In this document: positions 1-62,255 of the stretch, piece after piece
Numbering within the stretch: position 1 is the first letter of the stretch
Layout of the letters: the number at the start of each line of letters is the position of its first letter
IMG/VR virus record: IMGVR_UViG_3300037467_000723
Origin: a virus
Direction: 5' to 3' (one strand)
Length of the DNA stretch: 64,000 nt
The notes under the pieces: model-generated
What the model saw: only the letters and a program-made list of their open reading frames with translations
Databases searched by the model: none
What the model was told of the DNA's origin: nothing
Translations under genes and position numbers: made by a program

Positions 1-143
1 AATATCGTGTTCTAACTCCTAGCTGTTGGGTATCGCCAAAGTTATTCGAAATCAACGGCAAGCAATGTTATGAAATCAGCATCAGCTTTCATTCTAACTT
101 AGCATACGACATGTATGTACCAATCGCATAGGAGGAAATAGTC

Positions 144-518
144 ATGCAGTCATTCAAAGGACGTCAAGTCAATCAAGAAAAGCCGGTACGAGCTTACTTC
201 AATCTACACACAAAGCTCTGGAGCATCATGCAAGACGGTTTAGTAGTCGGTCACGCTAAAAGCCTTTTTCTAACAGGCATCAAGTTTAAAGTCAGCGAGT
301 CAGGTCGTCAGCGAGTCATCAAAGAAGGTCGCAAAAACGTTCACGCCTTCATTGAAGGATTTTACGCCGGGGAATCGTATGAGCTCGAGGGAGCACGGTC
401 ACTGTATTACAACCCGTACAAAGTCAGCACATTCGTAGACGCTGAAACACGCAAGGAACCGGGAAAAGTTAGTGCTGTATTACTTACATCAAATAAACAA
501 GCTATGTACGTAGCATAG
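144..518 (+). CDS. hypothetical early protein (124 aa)
   Basis: ORF with AGGAGG ribosome-binding site at about 130; first gene of the + strand early operon. Confidence 0.5.
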   Translation: MQSFKGRQVNQEKPVRAYFNLHTKLWSIMQDGLVVGHAKSLFLTGIKFKVSESGRQRVIKEGRKNVHAFIEGFYAGESYELEGARSLYYNPYKVSTFVDAETRKEPGKVSAVLLTSNKQAMYVA

Positions 519-529
519 GAGGAATCACG

Positions 530-658
530 ATGAGAGAGTTTTTAGAAACAGCCGGTTTAACAGGAAAAGAGTTCACATGGTGCATGGTTGCGGCAGTCGC
601 TAGTCTACCGATTGGATACGGACTAATAATGTTAGCTTGGTTGATAAGACCATGACAC
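530..658 (+). CDS. small hydrophobic hypothetical protein (42 aa)
   Basis: ATG preceded by taggaggaatcacg; hydrophobic C-terminal half; not in the >=60 aa track. Confidence 0.3.
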
Positions 659-670
659 TTGATCAAATAG

Positions 671-720
671 CCACGCTGAAGAGCTGTAATGACAGCGAAA
701 CGGCTTTTAGCCGTCCGTGG
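671..720 (+). ncRNA. hammerhead ribozyme, type I (HH1)
   Basis: ccacg-CUGAAGAG-cugu/aaug/acag-CGAAAC-ggc/uuuua/gcc-GUC-cgugg: stem I ccacg/cgugg, conserved core, predicted cleavage after C715. Confidence 0.75.
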
Positions 721-754
721 ATTCAACCACTACAAATTTTAGGAGGTCATTACA

Positions 755-1381
755 ATGACAAACGTACAAACAGAACAATACGAAGGAAAATTCGAAAGCC
801 TTAACTTTAAGTTAGACCATCCGGAACTCAGCTTTGTTGGATACGAGTTCGAAGGAGCCGAGTTTGTAATCGAAGAGTCAGGTTGTGAACAGTCACTATT
901 CAGAGTTCACGTAGAAAAAGGAACTGGATACACCGAAGTTTATGCAGCATACTCCCAGGATTTCGACGTCATGGAAGATGTTACTCACTACTTCGACATT
1001 GAACAGCTACAAAAAGATATTGAAGCATGGGAAGCTACACACGAAGTCAGCAACCAAGGCGAAGCATTCGTTAGATACTGTGCGCTCTGCGATAAGGGTT
1101 GGGACTGTGACGATGCAATCATCAAGTGCTACGACGATGAAGATAATGACTGGTGTACTGAACCTGTTGAACAGTTCCTTCTCATAAGAATCGGTAAAAA
1201 CGAAACACGACAAGTCACACTAAGCGAGGCAAAAAACTTCTTCTTAGTTGACAAATGGGGAGACGTTGAGTTCACCAACTTTGAAAGCTCTGACAGTCTA
1301 CGAAAAGCCATCATCACTGCAAAAGATGAAAACGAGCTTAACTTAATAGTCCGAGACACTTTCGGATATATCCTAGTATAG
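755..1381 (+). CDS. hypothetical acidic protein (208 aa)
   Basis: ORF with ribosome-binding site aggaggtcattacaATG. Confidence 0.55.
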   Translation: MTNVQTEQYEGKFESLNFKLDHPELSFVGYEFEGAEFVIEESGCEQSLFRVHVEKGTGYTEVYAAYSQDFDVMEDVTHYFDIEQLQKDIEAWEATHEVSNQGEAFVRYCALCDKGWDCDDAIIKCYDDEDNDWCTEPVEQFLLIRIGKNETRQVTLSEAKNFFLVDKWGDVEFTNFESSDSLRKAIITAKDENELNLIVRDTFGYILV

Positions 1382-1430
1382 TCACACTGATGAGCCGTAA
1401 AGACGGCGAAACGCCTTGGGGCGTCTGTGA
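1382..1430 (+). ncRNA. hammerhead ribozyme, type I (HH2)
   Basis: ucaca-CUGAUGAG-ccgu/aaag/acgg-CGAAAC-gcc/uugg/ggc-GUC-uguga, starting directly after the upstream stop codon. Confidence 0.8.
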
Positions 1431-1460
1431 ATACAAAAAACTTACCAGGAGGTCATTCAC

Positions 1461-1631
1461 ATGAAAAAAGTCAAACAGTACAAAGGTTTTGTAATCGCAT
1501 TAAATCGCTCTGATTGTTCATACGTAGTCTTCACGAAGGATGAATGGGCTTACGGTGAAGGATGCCGTTACCCAGAGCACGACGGATGCGGAAGCATCGA
1601 AGAAGCCATGGATTTCATCAAATCTTACTAG
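1461..1631 (+). CDS. hypothetical small protein (56 aa, Cys-containing)
   Basis: ATG with ribosome-binding site ccaggaggtcattcac; translates MKKVKQYKGFVIALNRSDCSYVVF... Confidence 0.4.
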   Translation: MKKVKQYKGFVIALNRSDCSYVVFTKDEWAYGEGCRYPEHDGCGSIEEAMDFIKSY

Positions 1632-1642
1632 GAGGAACCACG

Positions 1643-1780
1643 ATGAGAACATTCACTTTCAAGTTAGGTACCGGCAAGCACATCCACATAACAGCGGATT
1701 CACTGCCAATAGCTGTGAACGATTTAAAAGCCACTTTCGATGAGTCCATCTTGTATGAATTAGTCGAAGTACACGCATAG
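1643..1780 (+). CDS. hypothetical small protein (45 aa)
   Basis: ATG with ribosome-binding site taggaggaaccacg; the track's longer form (start 1562) overlaps the upstream gene. Confidence 0.4.
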   Translation: MRTFTFKLGTGKHIHITADSLPIAVNDLKATFDESILYELVEVHA

Positions 1781-1829
1781 CCACTCTGACGAGTCCTAGC
1801 GAGGACGAAACGGGGAAACCCGTCAGTGG
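1781..1829 (+). ncRNA. hammerhead ribozyme, type I (HH3)
   Basis: ccacu-CUGACGAG-uccu/agcg/agga-CGAAAC-ggg/gaaa/ccc-GUC-agugg. Confidence 0.8.
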
Positions 1830-1860
1830 ATAAACCACAACTACTAGGAGGTTTTACATT

Positions 1861-2115
1861 ATGAAACCAACATACGAACAATTATTAGAATTAGTACAGG
1901 AGTTAAGTCTTGCGCTAGACGATGCAGTCGACTTCATGGGGACTTTCGAGTCTACCGGATGCGAGGTTGAAAGCTTCGGTTGCACATGCGGTTACGAGGA
2001 CGGCGAGGATGGCATCGAGGAGTGCCAGTGCATGCAAGACGACACACACATCCGAGTCGGAGAAAAACGTCAGGTGCTCGATAAAGTCGAAGCTATTTTA
2101 GGGAGGAACGAATAA
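1861..2115 (+). CDS. hypothetical Cys-rich protein (84 aa)
   Basis: ORF with ribosome-binding site aggaggttttacattATG; the C-terminal LGRNE codons encode the next gene's ribosome-binding site. Confidence 0.5.
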   Translation: MKPTYEQLLELVQELSLALDDAVDFMGTFESTGCEVESFGCTCGYEDGEDGIEECQCMQDDTHIRVGEKRQVLDKVEAILGRNE

Positions 2116-2414
2116 TGGAATTTTTCACAGTCACAGCTAATTTTGATATGAGTGCTCACAGCGATTTAAAAGTCAAGTCATTCAAACATTGGACGAACGC
2201 TTACCTGTTTGCCGATTCACAACGCATCGAGTTCCTAAATTGCATCAGCGGCGGCGAGTTAGATTGGGAGGACACTGAGTACGAAGTCAACCAAGAAAGA
2301 CAGAAATACTTTCACTACGGTGTATCCAAGTCAGGCGAGGACTTCGTCACCATCCGAATTACAAAGACCACCTTCGCCGACGATGAGGTCGGTTTGCTAG
2401 GGAGGAACGAATAA
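2115..2414 (+). CDS. hypothetical protein (99 aa)
   Basis: translationally coupled (tagggaggaacgaataATG); same LLGRNE C-terminus as the upstream gene. Confidence 0.5.
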   Translation: MEFFTVTANFDMSAHSDLKVKSFKHWTNAYLFADSQRIEFLNCISGGELDWEDTEYEVNQERQKYFHYGVSKSGEDFVTIRITKTTFADDEVGLLGRNE

Positions 2415-2478
2415 TGTACGAATACTGTCCGGTATGCGGCTCCAGGTGCGAATCTGGTCAGCCATGCGATGATGATAG

Positions 2479-2525
2479 CCACACTGACGAGCTGTAAACA
2501 GCGAAACGCCTTAGGGCGTCTGTGG
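2479..2525 (+). ncRNA. hammerhead ribozyme, type I (HH4)
   Basis: ccaca-CUGACGAG-cugu/aa/acag-CGAAAC-gcc/uuag/ggc-GUC-ugugg. Confidence 0.8.
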
Positions 2526-2560
2526 ATCCCCACTAACTAAATTACTCGGAGGTTTTACCT

Positions 2561-3034
2561 ATGGAAAACTTAAAAAATCAATTATCAGCAATCTACCGTG
2601 CAAAGGAGCAAGAGCTTCAAGCTATGAGCGATGACGGTAAAGACGGTTTAATCGATTTCGCCATCTTAGACCAAGAAATTGACGATGTTAATCGTGCTCT
2701 AGAAGTTATCAACTCTGATAAGGATATTGACGATAAGCTGAACGACTTAGATAGCGTCTTGAGTGAAACAACGTCAAACTCACTTTACAACGCCCTTCAT
2801 AGCTTCCTAGATAACGTCATCTGCGTGGAAACTTACGGTACCTACATCGAGGAAACCGATACTCAGCACATCAAAATTGTAGCAGTTACAAAACCGTTCC
2901 TGGGAGCATTTGCGGCAGACAATTACGAGTGGACAATGGAGCAGTTTTTAGGCGAGTTCACTTGGGACCACACGGAAGACATTGACGTCCTAGCACAGGA
3001 GCACGGGGCTCTAGTAGGAGTGTGTGAGCGATGA
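2561..3034 (+). CDS. hypothetical acidic protein (157 aa)
   Basis: ORF with ribosome-binding site ggaggttttacctATG. Confidence 0.5.
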   Translation: MENLKNQLSAIYRAKEQELQAMSDDGKDGLIDFAILDQEIDDVNRALEVINSDKDIDDKLNDLDSVLSETTSNSLYNALHSFLDNVICVETYGTYIEETDTQHIKIVAVTKPFLGAFAADNYEWTMEQFLGEFTWDHTEDIDVLAQEHGALVGVCER

Positions 3035-3249
3035 GAGGCGTTAAACGTATCAAGTTAGTTACCTATTACAAAGGCAAAGAAATCCACAAAAAGGATTCCA
3101 CGACATTCTCAGTCCCTATGGAATGGTTAAAGGAGCTTCTACGTGTAGTGTTCGAAACAACATTAGACGACTTCAAAGAGGATTACACCTGGGACGATTC
3201 AGAGTGGATTTACTACGAAGCAAAACGAGCAGGATTACTTGCCTACTAG
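3031..3249 (+). CDS. hypothetical protein (72 aa)
   Basis: ATGA start/stop overlap with the upstream gene. Confidence 0.45.
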   Translation: MRGVKRIKLVTYYKGKEIHKKDSTTFSVPMEWLKELLRVVFETTLDDFKEDYTWDDSEWIYYEAKRAGLLAY

Positions 3250-3311
3250 TTGCACTGAAGAGTCGTTAATCGACGAAACCTAGTACACATTGTGTGTACG
3301 ATGGTCTGCAA
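3250..3311 (+). ncRNA. hammerhead ribozyme, type I (HH5)
   Basis: uugca-CUGAAGAG-ucg/uuaa/cga-CGAAAC-[long stem III containing GUACACAUUGUGUGUAC]-GUC-ugcaa. Confidence 0.7.
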
Positions 3312-3341
3312 CACCATTAAAACTACTTGGAGGCATTACAT

Positions 3342-3506
3342 ATGAAAACAACTTTAGAAGTCACTCACACAATCGAAATCACCGTGATCAAGACACCATT
3401 TGAAATGATAGTTTTAGTTGAAGAATCAATCGAAATCGTTGAAAGAGTCGAGCTACAACTCGATGCGGCAACATCATTAATTTTATCTCAGGAGGCGTTA
3501 GTATAA
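3342..3506 (+). CDS. hypothetical small protein (54 aa)
   Basis: ATG with ribosome-binding site ggaggcattacat. Confidence 0.35.
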   Translation: MKTTLEVTHTIEITVIKTPFEMIVLVEESIEIVERVELQLDAATSLILSQEALV

Positions 3507-3796
3507 TGGGCTGGAAAATTATCAAAGACCACGGTTATGAAAAAAGCGTGAAACGTGCTGAAAAATACGGCACTTCGGTTTATGGCACTAGCTATGAAGG
3601 CAAGGAACGTGACTACCAGGGCGGTAAGATGCAAGTCCGTACTTGGGATGATGACGGCAACCTATATTACACAGCGGTATGTGACGATGAGAACAGCGCA
3701 GAAGCCTTCCACGATTGGAGCCAATATGATTCCGGTTCTGTTCGCTCACAAATTAGAGTCAAAGGCAACGCCAAATGGGAGGAATTTATATCATGA
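3506..3796 (+). CDS. hypothetical protein (96 aa)
   Basis: coupled start ATAATGG; ORF. Confidence 0.5.
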   Translation: MGWKIIKDHGYEKSVKRAEKYGTSVYGTSYEGKERDYQGGKMQVRTWDDDGNLYYTAVCDDENSAEAFHDWSQYDSGSVRSQIRVKGNAKWEEFIS

Positions 3797-3921
3797 GTAA
3801 TTCACCAGCAACTCCTACAGTTGATGAACAGTGGTTACAGCTGATAATCGAAGCGAAACGTCTAGGAATCAGCATCGAAGAAATAAAACAGTTTCTAAAG
3901 GAGGCTAAATCAAATGAATAA
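3793..3921 (+). CDS. SinI-like antirepressor peptide (42 aa)
   Basis: DEQWLQLIIEAKRLGISIEEIKQFL resembles the SinI/SinR dimerisation helix (DQEWVELMVEAKEANISPEEIRKYL in B. subtilis SinI). Confidence 0.4.
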   Translation: MSNSPATPTVDEQWLQLIIEAKRLGISIEEIKQFLKEAKSNE

Positions 3922-4039
3922 ATGTACGTTTTGCGGCTGTACTTCCGACTTCTTTGATACGAAGATAGTCGGAGGTTACACGATCTTGGAATGCTGCAAC
4001 AATTGTGAAGATGAGATTTTGGAGGATGATTCAGAATGA
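3914..4039 (+). CDS. small zinc-ribbon-like protein (41 aa)
   Basis: CxxC...CCNNC pattern; overlapping coupled start. Confidence 0.3.
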   Translation: MNKCTFCGCTSDFFDTKIVGGYTILECCNNCEDEILEDDSE

Positions 4040-4179
4040 TTACAAAACGTTACCTGTTCGATCTAAATAAGTGGGAGGTCGTCGTCCTGGCTGAGAAAGC
4101 CAAGGATGATCGCCTTCTAGCTCGGTTCGATACGGAAGCCGAAGCCAATGCGGCAATAATCGGATTCACACATGCATAG
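4036..4179 (+). CDS. hypothetical small protein (47 aa)
   Basis: ATGA-coupled to the upstream gene; ribosome-binding site ggaggatgattcag. Confidence 0.3.
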   Translation: MITKRYLFDLNKWEVVVLAEKAKDDRLLARFDTEAEANAAIIGFTHA

Positions 4180-4239
4180 TTACGCTGATGAGCCCTTAAT
4201 GGGCGAAACGCCTCTCCCCTATCGGTTAGGCGTCCGTGA
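4180..4239 (+). ncRNA. hammerhead ribozyme, type I (HH6)
   Basis: uuacg-CUGAUGAG-ccc/uuaa/ggg-CGAAAC-gcc...ggc-GUC-cguga. Confidence 0.75.
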
Positions 4240-4325
4240 CAATATCAATTAGGAGGTCACTATGGGTATTAAATTAGGTAGTTTCAATTACACGCCAACC
4301 CATACAATTAAAGGAGGAAAAACCG

Positions 4326-4718
4326 ATGCAAGTAGGAATGAAGCACAGCGCAATTACAGCAATAAATCGGGGCGACGAGCTCCTGGAGACCAAGAAACGC
4401 TTTGGTCGCGCATTAAAAAAGCTACGAAGCGAACGTAAAGCTCACTCACTAAGAAGCCTTGGTGAGGCGGTTGGCGTCAGCGCTAAGTATTTATCGGAAA
4501 TCGAAAACGGGATCCACCTTCCACAGGATGAACTGATCTATAAAATAGCTCGTGAGTTTCGGATCAGCGAGGTTAAATTGTTCAAGATAGCCAAGCGAGT
4601 TCCACACACTGTTCGACAAGCAATCGAGCGTGACGGGGATCTAAACGAATTAGTCGCTAAGTTGGTAAAAGCTGATGCGTCAACGTTAGAGGCAATCTCT
4701 CAGCTACTGTCGAAATAG
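4326..4718 (+). CDS. XRE-family helix-turn-helix transcriptional regulator (130 aa)
   Basis: LRSLGEAVGVSAKYLSEIENG helix-turn-helix; strong ribosome-binding site aaaggaggaaaaaaccgATG. Confidence 0.7.
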   Translation: MQVGMKHSAITAINRGDELLETKKRFGRALKKLRSERKAHSLRSLGEAVGVSAKYLSEIENGIHLPQDELIYKIAREFRISEVKLFKIAKRVPHTVRQAIERDGDLNELVAKLVKADASTLEAISQLLSK

Positions 4719-4721
4719 GCA

Positions 4722-4751
4722 TTGACTTTAGATGTCGACAAGTAATACAAT
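4722..4751 (+). promoter_or_regulatory. sigma-A-like early promoter with embedded operator half-site
   Basis: TTGACT-18-TACAAT; spacer contains GTCGACAAGTAA. Confidence 0.5.
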
Positions 4752-4786
4752 AAGTCTAGGTACTTCACATAAGGAGATGTTACGTT

Positions 4787-5446
4787 ATGATTAAAACATT
4801 AGTTGGCGTCTTAGCTATCGGTGGTTGGGCGCTGTATACCATGAGTCACCACGTTGAGGATCCGAAAATTACCGAGAAAGATAAGCAGCAAGCTGCAGCC
4901 GTTCATCATCTCAGCAAAGCGGATGAGGAAGTGTTAGCCGTCAGCAATATGTCCCACGATCAGTTCTGGGCATGGGTTTCAAAACAGAATCCTCATGAGG
5001 AGCTTCCTCCAGAAAAGGATACATTCGAGCACTACGACCAAGCAACCTTGGACGGGATCACGGCAATGATGAATAAGGATGGCGACTCTGACTCCCCTAC
5101 TTCTAGTTCGGCTCAGGATACGTTGAACAGCGGTGATGCTAATTACACCGGTTCAAGTGATGACTCCTCTGTAGGATCCGTTCAAGACGAGTCAGGAAGC
5201 AAGGTTACTGTCCCGGCCGGTTATCACTGGGTTAGCGGATACACGACCAAGCGCGGAGTACACGTCAAGGGCCATCTCTCCAGGAACAAAGGCACCAAGA
5301 AGAAGTCGTCAGCCAGCACTGATCTGTCGAAGCCTACCTTCACTCATCACCATGACGTAGAGCAACGATCCATCACCAGTAAGCAAGACTTCCCTAGTGC
5401 GACCATCAGCGGTAGCGATCCAACAATAATCATAGGTACACATTAA
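4787..5446 (+). CDS. membrane-anchored/secreted protein with Ser/Asp/Thr-rich low-complexity region (219 aa)
   Basis: N-terminal hydrophobic helix MIKTLVGVLAIGGWALYT; low-complexity C-terminal half. Confidence 0.55.
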   Translation: MIKTLVGVLAIGGWALYTMSHHVEDPKITEKDKQQAAAVHHLSKADEEVLAVSNMSHDQFWAWVSKQNPHEELPPEKDTFEHYDQATLDGITAMMNKDGDSDSPTSSSAQDTLNSGDANYTGSSDDSSVGSVQDESGSKVTVPAGYHWVSGYTTKRGVHVKGHLSRNKGTKKKSSASTDLSKPTFTHHHDVEQRSITSKQDFPSATISGSDPTIIIGTH

Positions 5447-5468
5447 GTGTACGTAGGAGGAACCGATA

Positions 5469-5606
5469 ATGTGTATTGAATACATTTGTGAAAATAAAGA
5501 TTGCGGCTACACGTTCCTGGACGTGAAAGTCCTCCCCTTCTGTATGTGTCCGAAATGCGAAAGTTCAACGGAACATCACGAATGGGAAGGTCTTCCGGAT
5601 GACTAG
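5469..5606 (+). CDS. small zinc-ribbon protein (45 aa)
   Basis: CxxC...CPKC; ribosome-binding site ggaggaaccgataATG. Confidence 0.35.
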   Translation: MCIEYICENKDCGYTFLDVKVLPFCMCPKCESSTEHHEWEGLPDD

Positions 5607-5616
5607 TCGACAAGTA

Positions 5617-5650
5617 ACGAGGGGTTAATTCCCCTCTTTTTTCTTTTTAT
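5617..5650 (+). terminator. rho-independent terminator
   Basis: gaggggttaattcccctc hairpin followed by a T-run. Confidence 0.7.
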
Positions 5651-5685
5651 TCGTAAAGTTTTCTAATACTTTTACGAACAATCCG

Positions 5686-5715
5686 TTGACTAAGTGTTTA
5701 CTTGTCGTCTATACT
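5686..5715 (+). promoter_or_regulatory. sigma-A-like promoter with operator TTACTTGTCGTC in the spacer
   Basis: TTGACT-18-TATACT. Confidence 0.55.
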
Positions 5716-5751
5716 GTAACTAATATACCAATTATTAGGGGTGGTTTAGGC

Positions 5752-6006
5752 GTGAATAGGCCAGAAGACATAATTAAGATGACTAAACTAGAAATAGAAT
5801 CTTCATCAGAAAGAGCAGCTAAACTATTTGATAAGTTTACAATAGAAACTAGGACTAAGATAACGATAAAGCAATCTTTTATACTAGGGTACCTACATGG
5901 ACGTGAGCAAGCGTTGGATGAAGTGGGAATATTCGATGATGAAGATGACGATAGTAAGATATATGAGATACTAAAAAGTGATAAATATAATAAAAATAAT
6001 AGATGA
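5752..6006 (+). CDS. hypothetical protein in an AT-rich moron-like segment (about 84 aa; alternative start 5779)
   Basis: GTG with ribosome-binding site aggggtgg; the track start 5686 would overlap its own promoter; low local GC; acidic C-terminal DDEDDD. Confidence 0.4.
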   Translation: MNRPEDIIKMTKLEIESSSERAAKLFDKFTIETRTKITIKQSFILGYLHGREQALDEVGIFDDEDDDSKIYEILKSDKYNKNNR

Positions 6007-6035
6007 GTGTCAACGTACATACTTATAGACAAAAG

Positions 6036-6066
6036 GATCAGACGGAAATGTCTGGTCTTTTTTTGT
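6036..6066 (+). terminator. rho-independent terminator
   Basis: gatcagac-ggaaat-gtctggtc hairpin plus T9. Confidence 0.65.
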
Positions 6067-6068
6067 GT

Positions 6069-6097
6069 TTGCATGTACACATCATGTACCGTATAAT
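6069..6097 (+). promoter_or_regulatory. sigma-A-like promoter
   Basis: TTGCAT-17-TATAAT; spacer contains ATGTACACATCATGTAC. Confidence 0.5.
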
Positions 6098-6107
6098 GGA
6101 CATATAG

Positions 6108-6386
6108 ATGGGAGGAATCACAATGACTGAAGAAATACCAAAAATTAATCGTGAAGGCAAGTACACGGACACTTTCGTCCGGAAAACGGTATATATCGAG
6201 GAGAAGCTCCTGGAGATCATCCAGGAATTAGCGTCCAATCGTAAAGGTGAGCAGACGCGGATCATAGACGCAGCTCTACGGAGTTACTTGTCGAATCCGG
6301 ATAACATCGCTAAGCACTCATCTGTAGAAGATTGGTGGAAGAAACCGTTCTGGAAAGGAATCACCATCCACCCTACCGACGAATAG
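6108..6386 (+). CDS. putative ribbon-helix-helix (CopG/Arc-like) DNA-binding protein (92 aa)
   Basis: RIIDAALRSYL-type segment; weak inference. Confidence 0.4.
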   Translation: MGGITMTEEIPKINREGKYTDTFVRKTVYIEEKLLEIIQELASNRKGEQTRIIDAALRSYLSNPDNIAKHSSVEDWWKKPFWKGITIHPTDE

Positions 6387-6742
6387 TCGTTGTCAATTTA
6401 TCTCGAATGGTGGTACAATTTAGACAAAAGAAAAAACGCTGTTTCATCTTGGGGACGAGGACAGCGCTTCTCTAGAGCTTTAAAAATCACAGACAAAGAC
6501 AAAAAAACAAAAACAAAAAAATATCGCACCGAACGAAGCAAAAACAGGTTGGCAGCCGGTTTTAGTTCGTGACCATCAATTGGCAGTTGATAGTCGAGGT
6601 ACAAACAGAGTAAGTCGCAACAAAGGGACTAGTCTGTAGTTATAGTATTCGTTATTTACGTTTATTATAACACGCTTCTACCTCCCCTATCAACCCCACT
6701 CGACTCTTGTTCTGGTGCAATTTACTTAAAGGAGCAAGTCAC

Positions 6743-7681
6743 ATGCAAATCACAGACAAAGACACTTCATTATTAGGCTTATTATTCAACGAAGCACCGT
6801 TACTGATCCGTAAGGAGTTAGCTACCAGGCTCGGTCTTAACGAGGCAATCGTACTTCAACAGGTTCACTTCCATATCCAAGGCAAATATAAAACCGTAAA
6901 AGAAAAAGATCGTGCAGATGATCGTTCATGGATTGAGGGTACGTTCTGGACATATAACAGTTACCCAGAGTGGCAAGAGTCCGACTTCCCTTTCTGGTCA
7001 GCTAGTACAATTGAACGTACTTTCAAGAAACTGGAAAAACAAGGTATTCTACGGTCAGGAAGTTTCAACAAGATGAAAACGGATCGTACTAAGTGGTACA
7101 CAATCAATTACGAAAAGTTATCCACAGTATTAACAGGTGAGGAAACAGCTGAAAACGTTGATGTAGAGCAATCCATCAAAATGATGGGAAGCGCCGTTGA
7201 GCAATCCGTCAAATTGACAGAATGCGTGGTTGAGCAATCCGTCAAAATGACAGATTCCAATCCGTCAGATTGCCGTGAACCAATCCGTCAAATTGACAGC
7301 ATCTTACCTAAGAAGTCCTTAGAGGTCTTTACAAAGAACTTAGAAGAAGAAGATTATAATAAGCGCATGCAAAATTATCGTTTGGTTCGAATTGAATCTA
7401 TGAAACTATCAATTGAATCCGTGACCAACTTCCCTTCTTCTGTTTGTGAAGATGTCGCTACTATTCTATTTGATGAGAAAGAAATAAAGACTGTGTCATT
7501 GAGAGCAGTTAAAAGTGCGTTTGGTAAGTATAAGAAAAACAAAAAGAACGTGGGTAACTTAGTACCATGGTTTATTACTACGTATGTGAATGCAGAAATT
7601 GAAGTTTCAGTGGATGATTCAGAAACTGAGCAACCTGTAGCAACTGGATCAGTCCCCTTCTATAACTGGTTAGAACAATAA
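6743..7681 (+). CDS. replication initiator / replisome organiser with internal origin iterons
   Basis: start MQITDKD with ribosome-binding site aaaggagcaagtcacATG; N-terminal winged-helix-like region; five CAATCCGTCAAAWTGACAG iterons inside the coding sequence (VEQSVK repeats at protein level). Confidence 0.55.
   Translation: MQITDKDTSLLGLLFNEAPLLIRKELATRLGLNEAIVLQQVHFHIQGKYKTVKEKDRADDRSWIEGTFWTYNSYPEWQESDFPFWSASTIERTFKKLEKQGILRSGSFNKMKTDRTKWYTINYEKLSTVLTGEETAENVDVEQSIKMMGSAVEQSVKLTECVVEQSVKMTDSNPSDCREPIRQIDSILPKKSLEVFTKNLEEEDYNKRMQNYRLVRIESMKLSIESVTNFPSSVCEDVATILFDEKEIKTVSLRAVKSAFGKYKKNKKNVGNLVPWFITTYVNAEIEVSVDDSETEQPVATGSVPFYNWLEQ
7163..7299 (+). repeat. iteron array (candidate origin of replication)
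   Basis: about 5 direct repeats of (GTTGAG)CAATCCGTCAAA(A/T)TGACAG with about 23-33 bp period, followed by AT-rich DNA. Confidence 0.6.
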
Positions 7682-7707
7682 AATATGTACTTGTCGACAG
7701 TTTTCCG

Positions 7708-7737
7708 TTGACGTGTTTACTTGTCGTCGAGTATAAT
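7708..7737 (+). promoter_or_regulatory. sigma-A-like promoter with operator in the spacer
   Basis: TTGACG-18-TATAAT; spacer TGTTTACTTGTCGTCGAG; a second half-site at 7684-7699. Confidence 0.55.
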
Positions 7738-7775
7738 GAAGACATTAGCAAATACATATAACGGAGGTTATCGAC

Positions 7776-8576
7776 ATGGAAACTAAAAAGGTTATCGGTT
7801 ATGTACGTGTATCAACGGAGGAACAAAAGAAGCATGGTGGCGGCCTGGAAGTACAGATCGCTGCCATTGAAAACTATTGTGCAGCCATGGGTTGGGAGTT
7901 ACTATACATCGTAAAGGAACCGGCTGAGTCCGGATCATCTATCGAGAAGCGTAAGAAGTTCATGAACATCTTAAACAGCCTTAAGGATCCTAATCGTGGC
8001 TTCGATGGTGTTATCTCTACTAAGCTAGATCGTTTTGCACGTAATCTGAAAGAGTTATTGATTATTCACGATGATATGTTCGAACCGAATAACTGTGCTC
8101 TAATCAGCATCAAAGACCAATTCGATACAAGCACGGCTCAAGGTCGTTTGTTCTTCCAGATCATCGGAGGCTTTGCCGAGTTCGAACGTTCTGTAATCAC
8201 TGAGCGTACTATGGACGGCATCACTCAAAAGGCCGAGCGTGGCCAGCATGCCTCTGGTCGAATCGCATTAGGTTACAAGTCAGTGATGGTTGACGGTAAG
8301 AAAACGTTAGAGGTAGATGATTCCGAAAAAGAAATCGTTGAGTTGATCTTCCGTCTCAAAGACCAGAACCACCTGTCATTCGGTAAGATCGCGGACTATC
8401 TGAACGACAACGGTTATAAGCCAAAGCGCTGGACTCCAGAAAAGCCGGTGCAGTTCCACAATAGTTCCGTCCAAGTCATCTATAAGAATCCAAAGTACAA
8501 AGGCATCTATACGTTTAATCGACGTGGCGAAGACCAAATCGTAGTTGAAAACGAAGCATTACGTATCTTATCCTAG
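7776..8576 (+). CDS. serine recombinase (resolvase/invertase-type N-terminus plus partial recombinase domain, 266 aa)
   Basis: GYVRVSTEEQ catalytic-serine motif; C-terminal VIYKNPKYKGIYTF recombinase-domain-like; no zinc-ribbon/coiled-coil extension. Confidence 0.8.
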   Translation: METKKVIGYVRVSTEEQKKHGGGLEVQIAAIENYCAAMGWELLYIVKEPAESGSSIEKRKKFMNILNSLKDPNRGFDGVISTKLDRFARNLKELLIIHDDMFEPNNCALISIKDQFDTSTAQGRLFFQIIGGFAEFERSVITERTMDGITQKAERGQHASGRIALGYKSVMVDGKKTLEVDDSEKEIVELIFRLKDQNHLSFGKIADYLNDNGYKPKRWTPEKPVQFHNSSVQVIYKNPKYKGIYTFNRRGEDQIVVENEALRILS

Positions 8577-40724: not shown

Positions 40725-40787
40725 AAAAAGACGGACGCCACGAAATGTAGCGCCCTGTAATATGTGTACATAATGTACACTTTAATG

Positions 40788-45583: not shown

Positions 45584-45618
45584 TTATTAACCTCCTTAAA
45601 ACGTACACATAATGTGTA

Positions 45619-46110
45619 CTAATTTCCTTTCATTAAAACTTGCCATTGAATCGACAGAGTCGTAGTGTTATCGTGTGATACACCATTTAATGCTACATGA
45701 CTCCATAAATTACCGGCAGAATCGAATAAACCGGCCTCAGTTAGATCAATCGAGCCAGTAGGGTTATTTACGGGATCCACCGTACCCAAGGCGTCAGTTT
45801 GTTGGTAAGTTATCGAGTACTGAACGTAATAGGTTAAGAATGTAGTAGCGTAATCTACACCAAATCTCGTGTTAGCTAATTCGGCCCAAAGTGCTACATC
45901 GGAAGGGGAGGTACCGTTAACGTTGGTTCCCGTACCAACAGCGATTGAGCTAGGAACCGGTACTTGAACGCCTGTCCACATTTGAGCGACTTGGCCCCGT
46001 GCAAAGTTCGTGATCTGGTTTTTAAACACCTGGTCAAAAACGACCTCGCCCGTTTCTTTATCGTGCTTCATTACACGAACGTAACCAACGGCTTCTAAAC
46101 TATCGTTCAT
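45619..46110 (-). CDS. tail/baseplate protein (163 aa)
   Basis: ORF in the tail module. Confidence 0.45.
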   Translation of the reverse strand: MNDSLEAVGYVRVMKHDKETGEVVFDQVFKNQITNFARGQVAQMWTGVQVPVPSSIAVGTGTNVNGTSPSDVALWAELANTRFGVDYATTFLTYYVQYSITYQQTDALGTVDPVNNPTGSIDLTEAGLFDSAGNLWSHVALNGVSHDNTTTLSIQWQVLMKGN

Positions 46111-56947: not shown

Positions 56948-56985
56948 TAATTAATTTCCTCCTGTGTGTACATAATGTGTACTAA

Positions 56986-59557: not shown

Positions 59558-59600
59558 CGGCTAACCTCCTTTCTACTAAAGTGTGTGTACATTATGTGTA

Positions 59601-61244
59601 CTAAATATTTGCGAACTTAAGGCCAGATGATCGTTTCCTTGCGAGATCCACAGCCATATTAAGACCGTCGAGTAAGTCATCCGTTGAACTTTTTGGGAAG
59701 CGCTCCAGCTCCTCAATGAGGTCTTTCTGGGTTGCTAAGAAGCGGACTTGACCGTTACTCACGAGTGGCTCGAGAGCAGAGATACGAACTTCTTTTTTAA
59801 CCGTAGATTTGAACTCTCTGACCGGCAAATAAACGCCTTGCTCAGCGGATCGTTTGGTGACTTCATCTTTAAACATTTGCTGGAATGCAATCGTTTCGAT
59901 GTTAAAATTGAGATATTCGTAGATACTCGCTTTATTAAAGATGTCCTGGATGGTTTGATCCGGTGTTCGACGTTTCCTGTCGGTGTCTAAAACATAAAGG
60001 ATGCCGGTCTTTCGATGACGTCCTAAAGTCAAGATGACTGATGGATCTGCACGTTTTGTCTTTCCAAGACTCGGGTCGCATGCTCCGAAAATATCTAATT
60101 CGTCTAGTGACACGTCCTCAGGTGTGTAGTACCAAATCTTCTTGAAAATACGTGAATTTTCATCAATTGGTAGATTTTGATATTCTGATCCAAAGGCCAA
60201 TCTATTAGTCGCTCTGATAATCATCAAGCTTAATAGATCCATACGTTCGGGCCACAATACCTTTGAACCCTCGTTCATTTCAGCGTAGTTTTCCTTATAG
60301 TAATCTAGCGCCTTCTGACGTGCGATCCTCGATGCTTCCATCGGATTTTCGCCTTCATCACGAGAGTGATAGATACGCTCGAATTCGTTCCAGAGATCCA
60401 TACGGTCAGGGAATGTTTCAATAGCTTGATATCTAAAAGACTCAAAGTCACCGTGCTGGTTGATAAGAGTGTTCAAAACACTACCGAAGTGGATTACCGT
60501 ACCAACAACGAAAAACTTCATTTTCTTCGGATCACCAAGCGGAGCCACGGTTCTAAGAAGCCAGTTATACATCTTATCGATTCGTTCCGGTGTTGAAGTA
60601 CTTTCGTCGGACTCGATATCGTCACAAATAACATTCGGACGCTCGGACCCGTATCGCAAACCCCTCAATCCTTCGCCACCACCGGCTGCTTGAATTTTCA
60701 CTTGATTACTAGTGATGATTTCTAAGCTGTTCCAGGTCGGCCCCTTTAATTTACCGAAGTCGGCAATAAGTAGGGGATTGTCTTCCATCTCACTTTTGAT
60801 AACGTCCAAGAAACGTCTTGCGTTATCTTGCTTATCGGCAATCAGCAGCCAATAGCGCTTCTCAACGTCTTCGGCATAACAGATACACCAAAGCGGAAAG
60901 ATATTTGTTATAATAGTAGATTTTGCATGCGAACGTGGAGCTGCTATAGCAAACTTTCGTTCTAATGGATCCAACGTTGATTCACGTAGAAATGCTGCCA
61001 AATCGTAATGAAACGGTGGGCTCGGTGTGTCTGCCTTCAATAGATCGTGTGGAGGAGCACCCGTGAAATACGTTTTTGCAAACACCATAATGTCCTGGAA
61101 ACCGGCCTCGATACGTTGCAGTTTTGCAATCTCTTGCAGCAGCTCATAGTACCGAGACAGATTCGTAGGATCGATGTTTTGCTTCATTAACTCAGCTTGT
61201 CGTTTTAATAAGGAGATACGCTCAATGCGCTCTGCCGACTTCAT
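59601..61244 (-). CDS. terL: terminase large subunit (547 aa)
   Basis: N-terminal ATPase then C-terminal nuclease with acidic residues; overlaps terS by 4 nt. Confidence 0.8.
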   Translation of the reverse strand: MKSAERIERISLLKRQAELMKQNIDPTNLSRYYELLQEIAKLQRIEAGFQDIMVFAKTYFTGAPPHDLLKADTPSPPFHYDLAAFLRESTLDPLERKFAIAAPRSHAKSTIITNIFPLWCICYAEDVEKRYWLLIADKQDNARRFLDVIKSEMEDNPLLIADFGKLKGPTWNSLEIITSNQVKIQAAGGGEGLRGLRYGSERPNVICDDIESDESTSTPERIDKMYNWLLRTVAPLGDPKKMKFFVVGTVIHFGSVLNTLINQHGDFESFRYQAIETFPDRMDLWNEFERIYHSRDEGENPMEASRIARQKALDYYKENYAEMNEGSKVLWPERMDLLSLMIIRATNRLAFGSEYQNLPIDENSRIFKKIWYYTPEDVSLDELDIFGACDPSLGKTKRADPSVILTLGRHRKTGILYVLDTDRKRRTPDQTIQDIFNKASIYEYLNFNIETIAFQQMFKDEVTKRSAEQGVYLPVREFKSTVKKEVRISALEPLVSNGQVRFLATQKDLIEELERFPKSSTDDLLDGLNMAVDLARKRSSGLKFANI

Positions 61245-61787: not shown

Positions 61788-61862
61788 GACGGCTGGAATC
61801 GAACCAGCAACGGAATCCACCATATTGGATGCGTTTTACCATTAAACTACGTACAGCATGTA
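61788..61862 (-). tRNA. tRNA-like gene A
   Basis: reverse-complement T-arm GCTGG-TTCGATT-CCAGC and D-arm GTTT-AATGGTA-AAAC; acceptor has a bulge and the anticodon loop looks like 6 nt by hand. Confidence 0.4.
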
Positions 61863-61924
61863 TGCGCCCTTGGATGGTTCCCCCTAATTGTGAGGAACGG
61901 GCAGCATACTAAAAACCGTCTGCA

Positions 61925-62000
61925 CGATTCGAACGTGCGACCTTTCTCTCGAGATACTCGATTGCTCTACCAGACTGAGCTAAGACGGCAAGCTGTACTT
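61925..62000 (-). tRNA. tRNA-like gene B
   Basis: reverse complement GCCGTCT-TA-GCTCAGTCTGGTAGAGC ... GCACG-TTCGAAT-CGTGC-AGACGGT; canonical acceptor, D and T arms; anticodon arm could not be folded canonically by hand. Confidence 0.45.
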
Positions 62001-62160: not shown

Positions 62161-62179
62161 CGGAGAATGTGGAAATAAC

Positions 62180-62255
62180 GGAGAGAAGGGATTTGAACCC
62201 TCGAACTAGACACCTGCACGATGTCCGCTTTAACCAAACCAGCTAATCTCCCATA
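62180..62255 (-). tRNA. tRNA-like gene D
   Basis: reverse complement ...GACAU-CGUGCAG-GUGUC anticodon arm; GAGGG-TTCAAAT-CCCTT T-arm; acceptor stem only 5/7 paired. Confidence 0.4.

What the first reader, a model, noticed from the sequence alone, without database searches (positions are those of the whole stretch)
671..4239. Six type I hammerhead ribozymes, one in each of six consecutive intergenic gaps of the early operon
Six same-orientation elements fit the full hammerhead consensus (671-720, 1382-1430, 1781-1829, 2479-2525, 3250-3311, 4180-4239). Each has a 5-bp stem I made from the element's 5' and 3' ends, the CUGA(N)GAG core, a stem II hairpin, CGAAAC, a stem III hairpin, a GUC cleavage triplet, and then the stem I 3' strand. 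Each starts at or within a few nucleotides of the upstream stop codon and ends 20-40 nt before the next ribosome-binding site. Self-cleavage would cut the polycistronic early mRNA into monocistronic pieces with 2',3'-cyclic phosphate and 5'-OH ends. Such a dense, regular array used as cistron separators is unusual. It could set differential stability or translation of the early genes.
Basis: partly seen in the sequence, partly recalled or inferred. Interest (0 to 1): 0.85.

Follow-up and report, generated by a model that had tools for sequence, protein, structure and literature searches.

The report
Hammerhead ribozyme array in phage operon
Six self-cutting hammerhead RNA motifs, plus a seventh just outside the window, really do sit between gene blocks at the start of a phage genome, but such arrays have been described in phages since 2011, so this is a clear new example and not a new kind of element.

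Summary
Six type I hammerhead motifs lie on the + strand at 671-720, 1382-1430, 1781-1829, 2479-2525, 3249-3312 and 4179-4240. All have consensus cores and the predicted cleavage sites. They are the only such motifs in 64 kb, where chance predicts about 0.01-0.05. Rfam misses them at gathering score. A covariance model built only from unrelated viral-contig hammerheads scores them at 41-57 bits, and the next best hit scores 8.8. Natural variants and an 82%-identical relative show compensatory stem changes. A seventh member lies 256 nt left of the window. In a third relative, two of the same gene junctions carry pistol ribozymes instead, which suggests that self-cleavage itself is the selected function. 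Three details of the finding are wrong. The elements do not fill consecutive gaps; they separate blocks of 1-5 translationally coupled genes. They end 10-22 nt before the ribosome-binding site, not 20-40. The arrangement is not unusual: Perreault et al. 2011 described and tested clustered phage hammerheads, and 44 of 120 viral contigs I sampled hold two to six. Verdict: a new member of a known kind. Cleavage and its biological effect remain untested.

The parts
671..720 (+). HH1. Type I hammerhead: stem I CCACG/CGUGG, core CUGAAGA, stem II GCUGU-AAUG-ACAGC, GAA, stem III ACGGCU-UUU-AGCCGU. Cleavage predicted after C715.
   Evidence: Descriptor. Folds as a hammerhead by minimum free energy. Independent model R1 scores 44.0 bits, E 6e-12. 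A hammerhead sits at the same junction in L127 and a pistol ribozyme in L133.
1382..1430 (+). HH2. Type I hammerhead directly after the TAG stop of the 208-aa gene. Cleavage predicted after C1425.
   Evidence: R1 scores 56.7 bits, E 3e-16. The hammerhead at the same site in L127 (3548) has a compensatory C-G to U-A change in stem II.
1781..1829 (+). HH3. Type I hammerhead directly after a TAG stop. Cleavage predicted after C1824.
   Evidence: R1 scores 41.2 bits. Best Rfam hit is Hammerhead_1 at 26.2 bits, below the gathering score of 34.
2479..2525 (+). HH4. Type I hammerhead. Its 5' third overlaps the last six codons and the TAA stop of a possible 27-codon ORF (2415-2496). Cleavage predicted after C2520.
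   Evidence: R1 scores 51.7 bits.
3249..3312 (+). HH5. Type I hammerhead of the second subtype: 6-bp stem I, 4-bp stem II with a UUAAU loop, and a long stem III. Cleavage predicted after C3306.
   Evidence: Found only with the relaxed descriptor because stem III has an internal loop.. R1 scores 46.4 bits. No Rfam hit. Conserved before the orf54 homologue in L133.
3283..3299 (.). Palindrome GTACACA-TTG-TGTGTAC, which forms the tip of HH5 stem III. It is one of about 10 copies of this palindrome in the phage.
   Evidence: Kept in the matching L133 hammerhead with a different loop.
4179..4240 (+). HH6. Type I hammerhead of the second subtype, after a TAG stop and before the XRE-type regulator gene. 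Cleavage predicted after C4234.
   Evidence: R1 scores 50.7 bits. Variant contig L126 carries two compensatory double changes in stem II: C4193U with G4203A, and C4195G with G4201C.
144..655 (+). Gene block between HH0 and HH1: a 124-aa gene (Phage_L5_gp82 family) and a 41-aa membrane-like peptide. The block's first gene, a 117-aa gene, starts upstream of the window.
755..1381 (+). Single-gene block (208 aa, function unknown) between HH1 and HH2.
1461..1780 (+). Two-gene block (56 aa and 45 aa) between HH2 and HH3.
1861..2496 (+). Block of an 84-aa gene, a 99-aa gene and a possible 27-aa Cys-rich peptide between HH3 and HH4.
2561..3249 (+). Two-gene block (157 aa and 72 aa, overlapping by 4 nt) between HH4 and HH5.
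3342..4179 (+). Five-gene block (54, 96, 42, 41 and 47 aa, all overlapping or abutting) between HH5 and HH6.
4262..4718 (+). Last block after HH6: a possible 58-aa ORF and a 130-aa XRE-type helix-turn-helix regulator. A promoter-like site follows at 4722-4751.

Best explanation
The window is a roughly 66.8-kb tailed phage that is probably uncultured. Its rightward operon of small genes starts at three tandem promoter-like sites about 1.8 kb left of the window. The operon carries seven type I hammerhead ribozymes, six of them in the window.

**Shown by computation**
- The motifs are present and have consensus cores.
- The stems covary.
- Relatives carry ribozymes at the same junctions.

**Inferred**
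- Each ribozyme folds as it is transcribed and cuts itself after C17. This splits the long RNA into eight pieces of one to five translationally coupled genes.
- Because the topology is type I, almost the whole ribozyme stays on the 3' end of the upstream piece. It forms two hairpins ending in a 2',3'-cyclic phosphate.
- The downstream piece starts with a 5'-OH, the 5-6 nt of the stem I 3' strand, and a short leader of 10-22 nt before a strong ribosome-binding site.
- The likely effect is to uncouple the blocks. Each would get its own decay rate and a defined leader that is insulated from upstream sequence and ribosome traffic.
- In a related phage, two of the same junctions hold pistol ribozymes instead. 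So the selected property is most likely self-cleavage at that position, not the hammerhead sequence itself.
For: - **Motif and chance:** six of six consensus motifs on one strand, with about 0.01-0.05 expected by chance.
- **Folding:** each folds alone into the hammerhead junction.
- **Independent model:** model R1, built from 69 hammerheads of unrelated viral contigs, scores the six at 41-57 bits (E 3e-16 to 5e-11). The next hit scores 8.8 bits.
- **Covariation in this lineage:** 16 distinct sequences, 94.5% of cells paired, 10 of 14 pairs changed on both sides. The covariation score is 0.56, against 0.20 for shuffles and at most 0.085 with slid partners.
- **Variant contig:** two compensatory double changes in HH6 stem II.
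- **Relatives:** an 82%-identical relative has seven hammerheads, four of them at the same junctions. A 63% relative has pistol ribozymes at 59-60 bits (gathering score 34.5) at the GP88 and orf208 junctions, plus a hammerhead at the HH5 junction.
- **One transcription unit:** no strong promoter or terminator on the + strand between the upstream promoters and 4720.
- **Shared layout:** 53 independent hammerheads show stop codons clustered at the ribozyme's 5' edge and a ribosome-binding site a median of 16 nt downstream.
- **Precedent:** clustered phage hammerheads cleave in vitro and in E. coli (PMC3088659).
Against: - No cleavage data exist for these sequences.
- Rfam's hammerhead models do not reach gathering score (16-26 bits), and HH5 gets no hit at all.
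- Stem I is only 5-6 bp. With 30-100 nt of native flanks, the energy model keeps stems II and III but often loses stem I to competing pairings. With upstream context only, HH4 keeps 0 of 14 pairs. Efficient cleavage would therefore depend on co-transcriptional folding and on an unproven tertiary contact.
- The model's training set was chosen with a descriptor that requires pairing, so its own covariation statistics are partly circular.
- 'Early' timing is inferred from gene position only.
- The effect of a 5'-OH end on decay is not predictable here. In Bacillus subtilis, RNase J1 degrades the 5'-OH product of the glmS ribozyme (my own knowledge, Collins et al. 2007). Cleavage could therefore destabilise downstream blocks instead of protecting them.
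Confidence: 0.72

Rival explanations
1. Cleavage is gated and not constitutive. The upstream stop codon abuts or lies inside the ribozyme, so a terminating ribosome would cover stem I and the core. The stem I 3' strand can also pair with a downstream CCAC or with the spacer between the ribosome-binding site and the AUG. Together these would set the fraction of transcripts cut according to upstream translation or folding kinetics.
For: - Stop codons sit at 0 to +1 nt for four of seven ribozymes here.
- In 53 independent hammerheads, stop codons cluster at -2..+1, +6 and +10, the last two inside the ribozyme.
- Stem I is lost in context folds.
- The 3' strand is complementary to the next 30 nt in 73 of 162 cases, against 52 +/- 5 for permuted partners and 47 for the upstream control.
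- Five of the seven released 5' ends are predicted to begin with a hairpin.
Against: - Tight packing of stop codon, ribozyme and ribosome-binding site is also what plain genome compaction gives.
- The predicted alternative hairpins are weak (-4 to -7 kcal/mol).
- The enrichment test uses related sequences and is modest.
- Published phage arrays cleaved efficiently during transcription without any translation.
Confidence: 0.15
2. The ribozymes mainly mark the boundaries of exchangeable gene cassettes. A conserved module of about 85 nt (ribozyme, spacer, ribosome-binding site) would act as a joint for recombination between phages, with cleavage as a side effect or a selfish trait.
For: - Gene content between ribozymes differs strongly between this phage, L127 and L133, while the ribozymes persist at block boundaries.
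- The spacers after HH0, HH1, HH3 and HH4 resemble one another.
- Arrays in other contigs often share an identical stem I.
- Perreault et al. also noted that the flanked genes are not constant.
Against: - Identical stretches between the seven copies are short (about 12 nt or less), which is poor substrate for homologous recombination.
- Replacement by a non-homologous pistol ribozyme at the same junction cannot be explained by sequence-homology joints. It points to selection for cleavage.
- Perfect cores and compensatory changes show purifying selection on catalysis.
Confidence: 0.08
3. The excised pieces are joined into circular or spliced RNAs. The 5' end of a piece would pair with the next ribozyme's stem I 5' strand and be re-ligated, as in viroid-like RNAs and retrozymes.
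For: - Hammerheads catalyse the reverse reaction.
- Type I topology places the catalytic body and the cyclic phosphate on the same piece.
- Some arrays in other contigs have an identical stem I throughout.
Against: - In this phage, cross-pairing between neighbouring ribozymes is mismatched at the critical 1.1-2.1 pair in three of six pieces and is a G-U wobble in two.
- Perreault et al. looked for circular or spliced products from phage arrays and found none.
- The pieces are ordinary mRNAs with ribosome-binding sites.
Confidence: 0.03
4. The motifs are inactive relics, or they serve only as RNA hairpins such as stabilisers or protein-binding sites, without self-cleavage.
For: - Short stem I, sub-threshold Rfam scores, and loss of stem I in context folds.
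- One stem III carries a palindrome that recurs elsewhere in the genome and may bind a protein.
Against: - Every one of the 13 invariant core positions is intact in all seven copies and in the relatives. In L127 6136 and L133 4552, I read an extra U before stem II from the sequence.
- The stems change by compensation.
- Relics would decay first in the unpaired core.
- The pistol swap points to cleavage as the selected function.
Confidence: 0.02

Closest known systems
Clustered hammerhead ribozymes in prophages (Perreault et al. 2011, PLoS Comput Biol, PMC3088659). Examples: Clostridium scindens, Azorhizobium caulinodans, Agrobacterium tumefaciens.
   Same: Several same-strand hammerheads flank single genes or short gene blocks of variable identity in phage DNA. 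The proposed role is the same: processing long phage transcripts into operon-length or gene-length mRNAs. Both have consensus cores.
   Different: The arrays tested in vitro had three members; this one has seven in 4.6 kb. All members here are type I with a very short open stem I. Those arrays were shown to cleave, and this one has not been tested.
Schistosoma-type (Rfam RF00163) and HH9 (RF02275) type I hammerheads
   Same: They share the type I topology, a core-proximal stem I helix of about 6 bp, a 4-bp stem II, and an A-rich loop II (UNAAU here, CAAAUA in the Rfam Hammerhead_1 consensus).
   Different: Here stem I does not continue into a distal helix. Instead, a conserved unpaired A flanks it on each side (52 of 53 and 47 of 53 in independent examples). 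Scores against both Rfam models stay below gathering.
Pistol ribozymes and the gene neighbourhoods shared by hammerhead, twister, pistol and hatchet ribozymes (Weinberg et al. 2015; Harris et al. 2015, PMC4604425)
   Same: Different self-cleaving classes occur near the same phage genes and near each other, mainly in Firmicutes and phages. In relative L133, three pistol ribozymes and one hammerhead share one operon.
   Different: The window itself holds only hammerheads. The replacement of hammerhead by pistol at two junctions flanked by homologous genes is more specific than the general co-association stated in the papers I read.
Engineered ribozyme insulators and cistron separators, such as RiboJ (Lou et al. 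2012) and RNA processing in synthetic operons (Qi et al. 2012). Cited from my own knowledge.
   Same: A hammerhead just upstream of a ribosome-binding site removes the upstream RNA, so translation of the next gene no longer depends on context. RiboJ also adds a small hairpin after the ribozyme, as predicted here for HH0, HH1 and HH4.
   Different: Those are synthetic designs. An insulating role for the natural array is only an inference.
Type I hammerheads in 5' UTRs of fungal and plant RNA viruses (bioRxiv 10.1101/2024.05.16.594327)
   Same: Viral type I hammerheads lie upstream of coding regions, and the self-cleaving activity itself is needed for translation. Other ribozyme classes can substitute.
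   Different: Those are eukaryotic RNA viruses using cap-independent translation. This is a DNA phage that uses Shine-Dalgarno initiation.

Membership tests
Hammerhead ribozyme | Conserved core: C3 U4 G5 A6 N7 G8 A9, G12 A13 A14, A15.1-U16.1, and H17 not G. | tested here: met
   All six window elements and HH0 have CUGANGA, GAA, an A...U pair closing stem III, and C17.
Hammerhead ribozyme | Three helices around the core, with standard pairs directly next to it (1.1-2.1, 10.1-11.1, 15.1-16.1). | tested here: met
   Stems are 5-6, 4-5 and 3-6 or more bp. All core-adjacent pairs are standard. The minimum free energy fold of each isolated element is the three-way junction.
Hammerhead ribozyme | The helices are supported by compensatory variation. 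| tested here: met
   In the lineage alignment, 10 of 14 pairs change on both sides and 94.5% of cells are paired, well above the slid-partner controls. Variant L126 has two double changes in HH6 stem II.
Hammerhead ribozyme | Reaches the curated Rfam gathering score of a hammerhead model (RF00163, RF00008, RF02275, RF02276, RF02277). | tested here: not met
   There is no hit at gathering score. Five of six score 16-26 bits against thresholds of 34-52, and HH5 has no hit. A model built from 69 independent viral hammerheads of this variant scores 41-57 bits. The failure therefore reflects what the Rfam seed alignments cover.
Hammerhead ribozyme | A tertiary contact between stem I and loop II that gives fast cleavage at physiological Mg2+. 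| tested here: inconclusive
   Loop II is conserved (UNAAU or ANNG), and a single A flanks stem I on each side in independent examples. This fits a contact, but no structure or kinetics can be obtained here.
Hammerhead ribozyme | Site-specific self-cleavage that gives 2',3'-cyclic phosphate and 5'-OH ends. | not testable with these tools
   This needs in vitro transcription or end-specific RNA sequencing.
Type I hammerhead topology | Stem I is open (5' and 3' ends), and stems II and III are closed by loops. | tested here: met
Clustered phage hammerhead arrangement (Perreault et al. 2011) | Several hammerheads on the coding strand flank genes or short gene blocks in phage or prophage DNA. | tested here: met
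   Phage identity comes from terminase, portal, tape measure, PolA and RNR matches. Seven same-strand ribozymes bound blocks of 1-5 genes.

The most novel reading that the evidence does not exclude
In phage operons, self-cleavage sites may act as a generic, class-interchangeable kind of genetic punctuation. The ribozyme would be packed against or over the upstream stop codon, so that ribosome occupancy gates cleavage. The released downstream RNA would then refold its 5' end into a small hairpin, which makes the cut irreversible and sets a defined, insulated leader for the next ribosome-binding site.

Three observations hint at such a translation-coupled natural insulator:
- the hammerhead-to-pistol swap at homologous junctions;
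- the non-random placement of stop codons;
- the enriched downstream complementarity.

None of these proves it.
Probability: 0.18. Interest if true: 0.7.

Novelty: new member of a known kind. Interest (0 to 1): 0.4.

Why it matters
What self-cleaving ribozymes do in bacteria and phages is still an open question. A 2019 review says more work is needed (PMC6765202).

This locus adds no new concept, but it is a clean comparative system:
- It has seven consensus hammerheads in one operon.
- A close relative also has seven, some at shifted positions.
- A more distant relative has pistol ribozymes at two of the same junctions.

That set could be used to test three things: whether cleavage itself is what matters, whether ribozyme classes are interchangeable, and whether cleavage changes the stability or translation of the neighbouring gene blocks.

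There is also a practical point. Rfam's gathering thresholds miss this abundant short-stem-I type I variant entirely, so routine annotation under-reports it in viral metagenomes.

Tried and rejected
**Searches that found nothing**
- A megablast of window 1-8000 against GenBank phages found nothing.
- The terminase is under 40% identical to any listed phage.
- Back-translated patterns of the 208-aa protein found no relative in IMG/VR.
- The terminase search found only one 8.8-kb contig, and that contig has no hammerhead.
- A subtype-specific pattern scan of 185,579 species genomes returned only a 516-nt MAG contig with two hammerheads, so it gave no host clue.
- Homologues of the 208-aa protein in a Margalitia (Bacillaceae) genome (L130) and in contig L131 sit in regions with no hammerhead by the model.
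- PHROGs gave no functional annotation for any gene between the ribozymes.
- No other ribozyme class is present in this phage.

**Ideas I considered and rejected**
- The invariant UAG before stem I is not simply the stop codon. It is the real stop for four of six elements. In independent hammerheads the conserved feature is a single A at -1.
- The hairpins are not terminators, because no T-run follows them.
- Circularisation is unlikely in this phage.

Full report
**1. The observation**

I read window 1-5000. Each of the six intervals can be parsed the same way: a stem I 5' strand, CUGANGA, a stem II hairpin closed by G10.1-C11.1, GAA, a stem III hairpin closed by A15.1-U16.1, C17, and the stem I 3' strand. 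My descriptor encodes these rules. It finds five elements at strict settings and all six at relaxed settings, because HH5 has an internal loop in stem III. It finds nothing else on either strand of the 64-kb window. In 300 dinucleotide-preserving shuffles the strict descriptor hit twice in total and the relaxed one 16 times, which is 0.007 and 0.053 per window. Each element folds on its own into the hammerhead three-way junction by minimum free energy.

**2.

- **Rfam.** At gathering thresholds Rfam reports only one tRNA in the window. At permissive thresholds five of the six elements give weak hits of 16-26 bits to Hammerhead_1, HH9 or Hammerhead_3. All are below gathering, and HH5 gives none.
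- **Independent sequences.** My descriptor found 180 hammerheads in those loci.
- **Custom model.** I aligned 69 of them, none from this phage, and built covariance model R1 with an explicit hammerhead structure.
- **Result.** With filters off, R1 scores the six window elements at 41.2-56.7 bits (E 5e-11 to 3e-16). The seventh-best hit in the window scores 8.8 bits (E 3.4).
- **Conclusion.** The Rfam seed alignments do not cover this short-stem-I type I variant.
- **Caveat.** The training sequences were chosen with a descriptor that demands pairing, so the training set's own pairing statistics are partly circular. The clean separation of scores in the window is not.

**3. What the window is, and the full extent of the array**

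- **Phage identity.** The window encodes a large terminase, a portal, a tape measure protein, a family A DNA polymerase, a ribonucleotide reductase, a DnaB-type helicase and a DnaD-like loader. It has no close relative among GenBank phages.
- **Same phage on other contigs.** Looking up the first complete protein by exact sequence found several metagenomic contigs of the same phage. L121 is identical to the window over 10,518 nt and extends 9.9 kb to the left. The longest contig carrying the identical 208-aa protein is 66,841 nt, which is probably the genome size.
- **Operon start.** The packaging genes lie divergently upstream. The rightward operon starts at three tandem promoter-like sites with extended -10 elements at L121 7693, 7858 and 8022. 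A long leader, a 62-aa gene and a GP88-family gene follow.
- **Seventh hammerhead.** Model R1 finds HH0 at L121 9553-9601, which is window -304..-256, right after the GP88-like gene.
- **One transcription unit.** Between those promoters and about window 4720 there is no strong promoter-like or terminator-like site on the + strand. A promoter-like site follows at 4722-4751 and a good terminator at 5619-5636. A single transcription unit fits this layout. 'Early' is an inference from gene position and content.

**4. Anatomy, and corrections to the finding**

The order of genes and ribozymes is:

- orf62, GP88-like gene
- HH0
- orf117, orf124, orf41
- HH1
- orf208
- HH2
- orf56, orf45
- HH3
- orf84, orf99, possible orf27
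- HH4
- orf157, orf72
- HH5
- orf54, orf96, orf42, orf41b, orf47
- HH6
- possible orf58, then the XRE-type regulator

- **Gaps.** Genes within a block overlap or are about 11 nt apart, and those junctions have no ribozyme. From the GP88-like gene onward, every gap of about 64 nt or more has one. Upstream of it, the 75-nt gap between orf62 and the GP88-like gene holds only the palindrome (see section 9). So 'consecutive gaps' and 'monocistronic pieces' are both inaccurate.
- **Stop codons.** The distance from the stop codon to stem I is 0 or +1 nt for HH2, HH3, HH5 and HH6. It is -15 for HH1 and -30 for HH0. HH4 overlaps the last six codons and the TAA stop of a 27-codon ORF that has a strong ribosome-binding site but was not called by the source annotations.
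- **Downstream spacing.** Stem I ends 10-22 nt before the ribosome-binding site and 21-35 nt before the start codon.
- **Two subtypes.** HH0-HH4 have a 5-bp stem I (C/U)CACN and mostly a 5-bp stem II with a four-base loop. HH5 and HH6 have a 6-bp stem I starting with G, a 4-bp stem II with loop UUAAU, and a long stem III.
- **Spacing.** Successive cleavage sites are 977, 710, 399, 696, 786 and 928 nt apart.

**5. Conservation and covariation at the same sites**

- **Variant contig L126.** It differs from the window at nine positions in its last 1.5 kb. Four of them lie in HH6 stem II and form two compensatory double changes: C4193U with G4203A, and C4195G with G4201C.
- **Relative L127.** Its orf208 homologue is 82% identical to the window's. 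It carries seven hammerheads by R1. Protein comparison places four of them at the junctions of HH0, HH1, HH2 and HH6.
- **Compensatory changes in L127.** Their stems differ from the window's by compensation. HH1 stem II changes from GCUGU/ACAGC to GUCGU/ACGAC. HH6 stem II changes from GCCC/GGGC to GGCU/AGCC. HH0 stem II changes from GUCG/CGAC to GUCC/GGAC.
- **Lineage alignment.** An alignment of the 16 distinct hammerheads of this lineage has 94.5% of cells paired and 10 of 14 pairs changed on both sides. The covariation score is 0.56, against 0.20 for shuffles and at most 0.085 when partners are slid.
- **Caveat.** That alignment was fitted to the model, so it leans towards the structure. 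The comparisons at matching junctions do not depend on it.

**6. A different ribozyme class at the same junctions**

In relative L133 (orf208 homologue 63% identical), R1 finds only one hammerhead. It lies before the orf54 homologue, which is the HH5 position, and it has the same palindromic stem III. Rfam finds three pistol ribozymes there at 58.9-60.2 bits, with a gathering score of 34.5:

- one directly after the GP88 homologue, which is the HH0 junction;
- one between the small membrane peptide and the orf208 homologue, which is the HH1 junction;
- one after a 72-aa gene.

The flanking proteins are homologous. Pistol and hammerhead ribozymes are structurally unrelated but catalyse the same reaction. 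The simplest reading is that selection acts on self-cleavage at these positions. It is known in general that ribozyme classes share phage gene neighbourhoods (PMC4604425; PMC6765202). The swap at homologous junctions is a more specific illustration of that.

**7. How common such arrays are**

Among the 120 loci held when I ran the scan (119 from the pattern scan plus the terminase locus L001, which has no hammerhead), the descriptor found these counts per locus:

| Hammerheads per locus | Loci |
|---|---|
| 0 | 6 |
| 1 | 70 |
| 2 | 28 |
| 3 | 12 |
| 4 | 3 |
| 6 | 1 (L052, six on one strand in 5.3 kb) |

The loci are truncated to about 14 kb or less, so these counts are lower bounds. Many arrays share an identical stem I.

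Perreault et al. 2011 state that multiple hammerheads often flank individual genes or short gene blocks in prophages. [quoted passage not shown] The 2019 review repeats the processing hypothesis and says the purpose is undefined. Seven members is at the high end of what I saw.

**8. Mechanism: what is shown and what is inferred**

Shown by computation:
- the motifs, their covariation, their placement at matching junctions in relatives, and the layout.

Inferred:
- Co-transcriptional cleavage splits the RNA into eight pieces.
- The ribozyme body stays at the 3' end of each upstream piece.
- Each downstream piece gets a 5'-OH and a short leader.

Generality of the layout. In 53 independent hammerheads that my search pattern did not select, the base 5' of stem I is A in 52 cases and the base 3' of it is A in 47. 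Stop codons cluster at -2..+1, +6 and +10 relative to stem I. The ribosome-binding site is a median of 16 nt downstream.

Two further hints:
- The stem I 3' strand is complementary to the next 30 nt more often than expected. At least four Watson-Crick pairs occur in 73 of 162 cases, against 52 +/- 5 for permuted partners and 47 for the upstream control. Five of the seven released 5' ends here are predicted to start with a weak hairpin. This could trap the product or protect the new 5' end.
- With native flanks, the energy model often loses stem I while keeping stems II and III. Cleavage efficiency may therefore depend on folding kinetics, tertiary contacts or translation.

I cannot predict whether cleavage stabilises or destabilises the flanking blocks. 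In Bacillus subtilis, RNase J1 degrades the 5'-OH product of the glmS ribozyme (my own knowledge).

**9. Rival explanations**

- **Gated cleavage** is compatible with the data and is a refinement of the main reading, not an alternative to it.
- **Cassette-boundary or recombination joints** fit the variable gene content. They do not fit the non-homologous pistol swap or the short stretches of identity.
- **Circularisation** is disfavoured here. Neighbouring ribozymes mismatch at the 1.1-2.1 pair in three of six pieces, and Perreault et al. found no circles.
- **Inactive relics** are very unlikely, given intact cores with compensating stems.

**10. Verdict**

These are real type I hammerheads, and the array belongs to a kind that is already described. 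It is a good comparative system but not a surprise to specialists. I set interest at 0.4. The points in its favour are the hammerhead-to-pistol swap at homologous junctions, the general stop-codon-to-ribozyme-to-ribosome-binding-site layout, and the blind spot in Rfam.

Noticed in passing
L121 9553-9601 (window -304..-256, outside the window): A seventh hammerhead (HH0) of the same array, after a GP88-family gene. It is preceded by GTT instead of TAG and by a palindromic hairpin. R1 scores it at 42.2 bits.
   Followed up: yes
window 3283-3299, 5436-5452, 6075-6089, 40766-40778, 45603-45619, 56968-56982, 59587-59601; L121 8062, 8653, 9534: The palindrome GTACA(CA)-N3-(TG)TGTAC occurs about 10 times, with about 0.4 expected from my own estimate. 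Most copies are intergenic, in both the rightward and leftward operons. One lies just after the third promoter, one just 5' of HH0, and one forms the tip of HH5 stem III, where it is conserved in L133. It may be an operator for a dimeric phage regulator or a protein-bound RNA hairpin.
   Followed up: partly
L133 1881-1945, 2588-2655, 3462-3528: A related phage has three pistol ribozymes (59-60 bits, gathering score 34.5). Two sit at the junctions that carry HH0 and HH1 in this phage.
   Followed up: yes
window 2415-2496: A possible 27-codon Cys-rich ORF (MYEYCPVCGSRCESGQPCDDDSHTDEL) has the same ribosome-binding-site block as the preceding gene. Its last six codons and TAA stop are encoded by HH4's stem I, core and stem II. 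The source annotations did not call it.
   Followed up: partly
window 653-670: The 41-aa peptide gene ends in TGA and is followed four codons later by an in-frame TAG that abuts HH1. In both relatives the stop codon directly abuts the ribozyme, so this phage has a 12-nt insertion or a recent stop mutation.
   Followed up: partly
window 2097-2117 and 2397-2417: A near-identical 20-nt block covering the ribosome-binding site and start codon (TAGGGAGGAACGAATAATG) is repeated 300 nt apart, in front of orf99 and the possible orf27.
   Followed up: no
L127 6136-6193 and L133 4552-4616: These are hammerhead variants with an extra U between A9 and the first stem II pair (CUGAUGA-U-G...). They score lower (29.5 and 38.3 bits). 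L127's copy sits before the orf219 homologue, where this phage has a promoter-like site instead (window 4722-4751).
   Followed up: partly
window 61789-61852, 61914-61989, 62179-62253 (- strand): A small tRNA cluster lies next to the packaging genes. ARAGORN calls tRNA-Ile(UAU) and tRNA-Ala(UGC). Rfam's gathering scan of the whole window listed only a third, weaker tRNA at 61789-61852 and missed the 44-bit hit seen on L121.
   Followed up: partly
window 7776-8576: A 266-aa protein has Resolvase and Recombinase domains, so it is a serine recombinase. It lies among the replication genes, and the phage may be temperate or carry a DNA invertase.
   Followed up: no
IMG/VR loci L002-L120, e.g. L052 6752-12067, L004 6255-7748, L113 5739-8098: Short-stem-I type I hammerheads are abundant in viral contigs and often form same-strand arrays with an identical stem I. 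Independent examples have an almost invariant unpaired A on each side of stem I, and upstream ORFs often end inside the ribozyme, using the UAA of stem I or the UGA of the core.
   Followed up: partly
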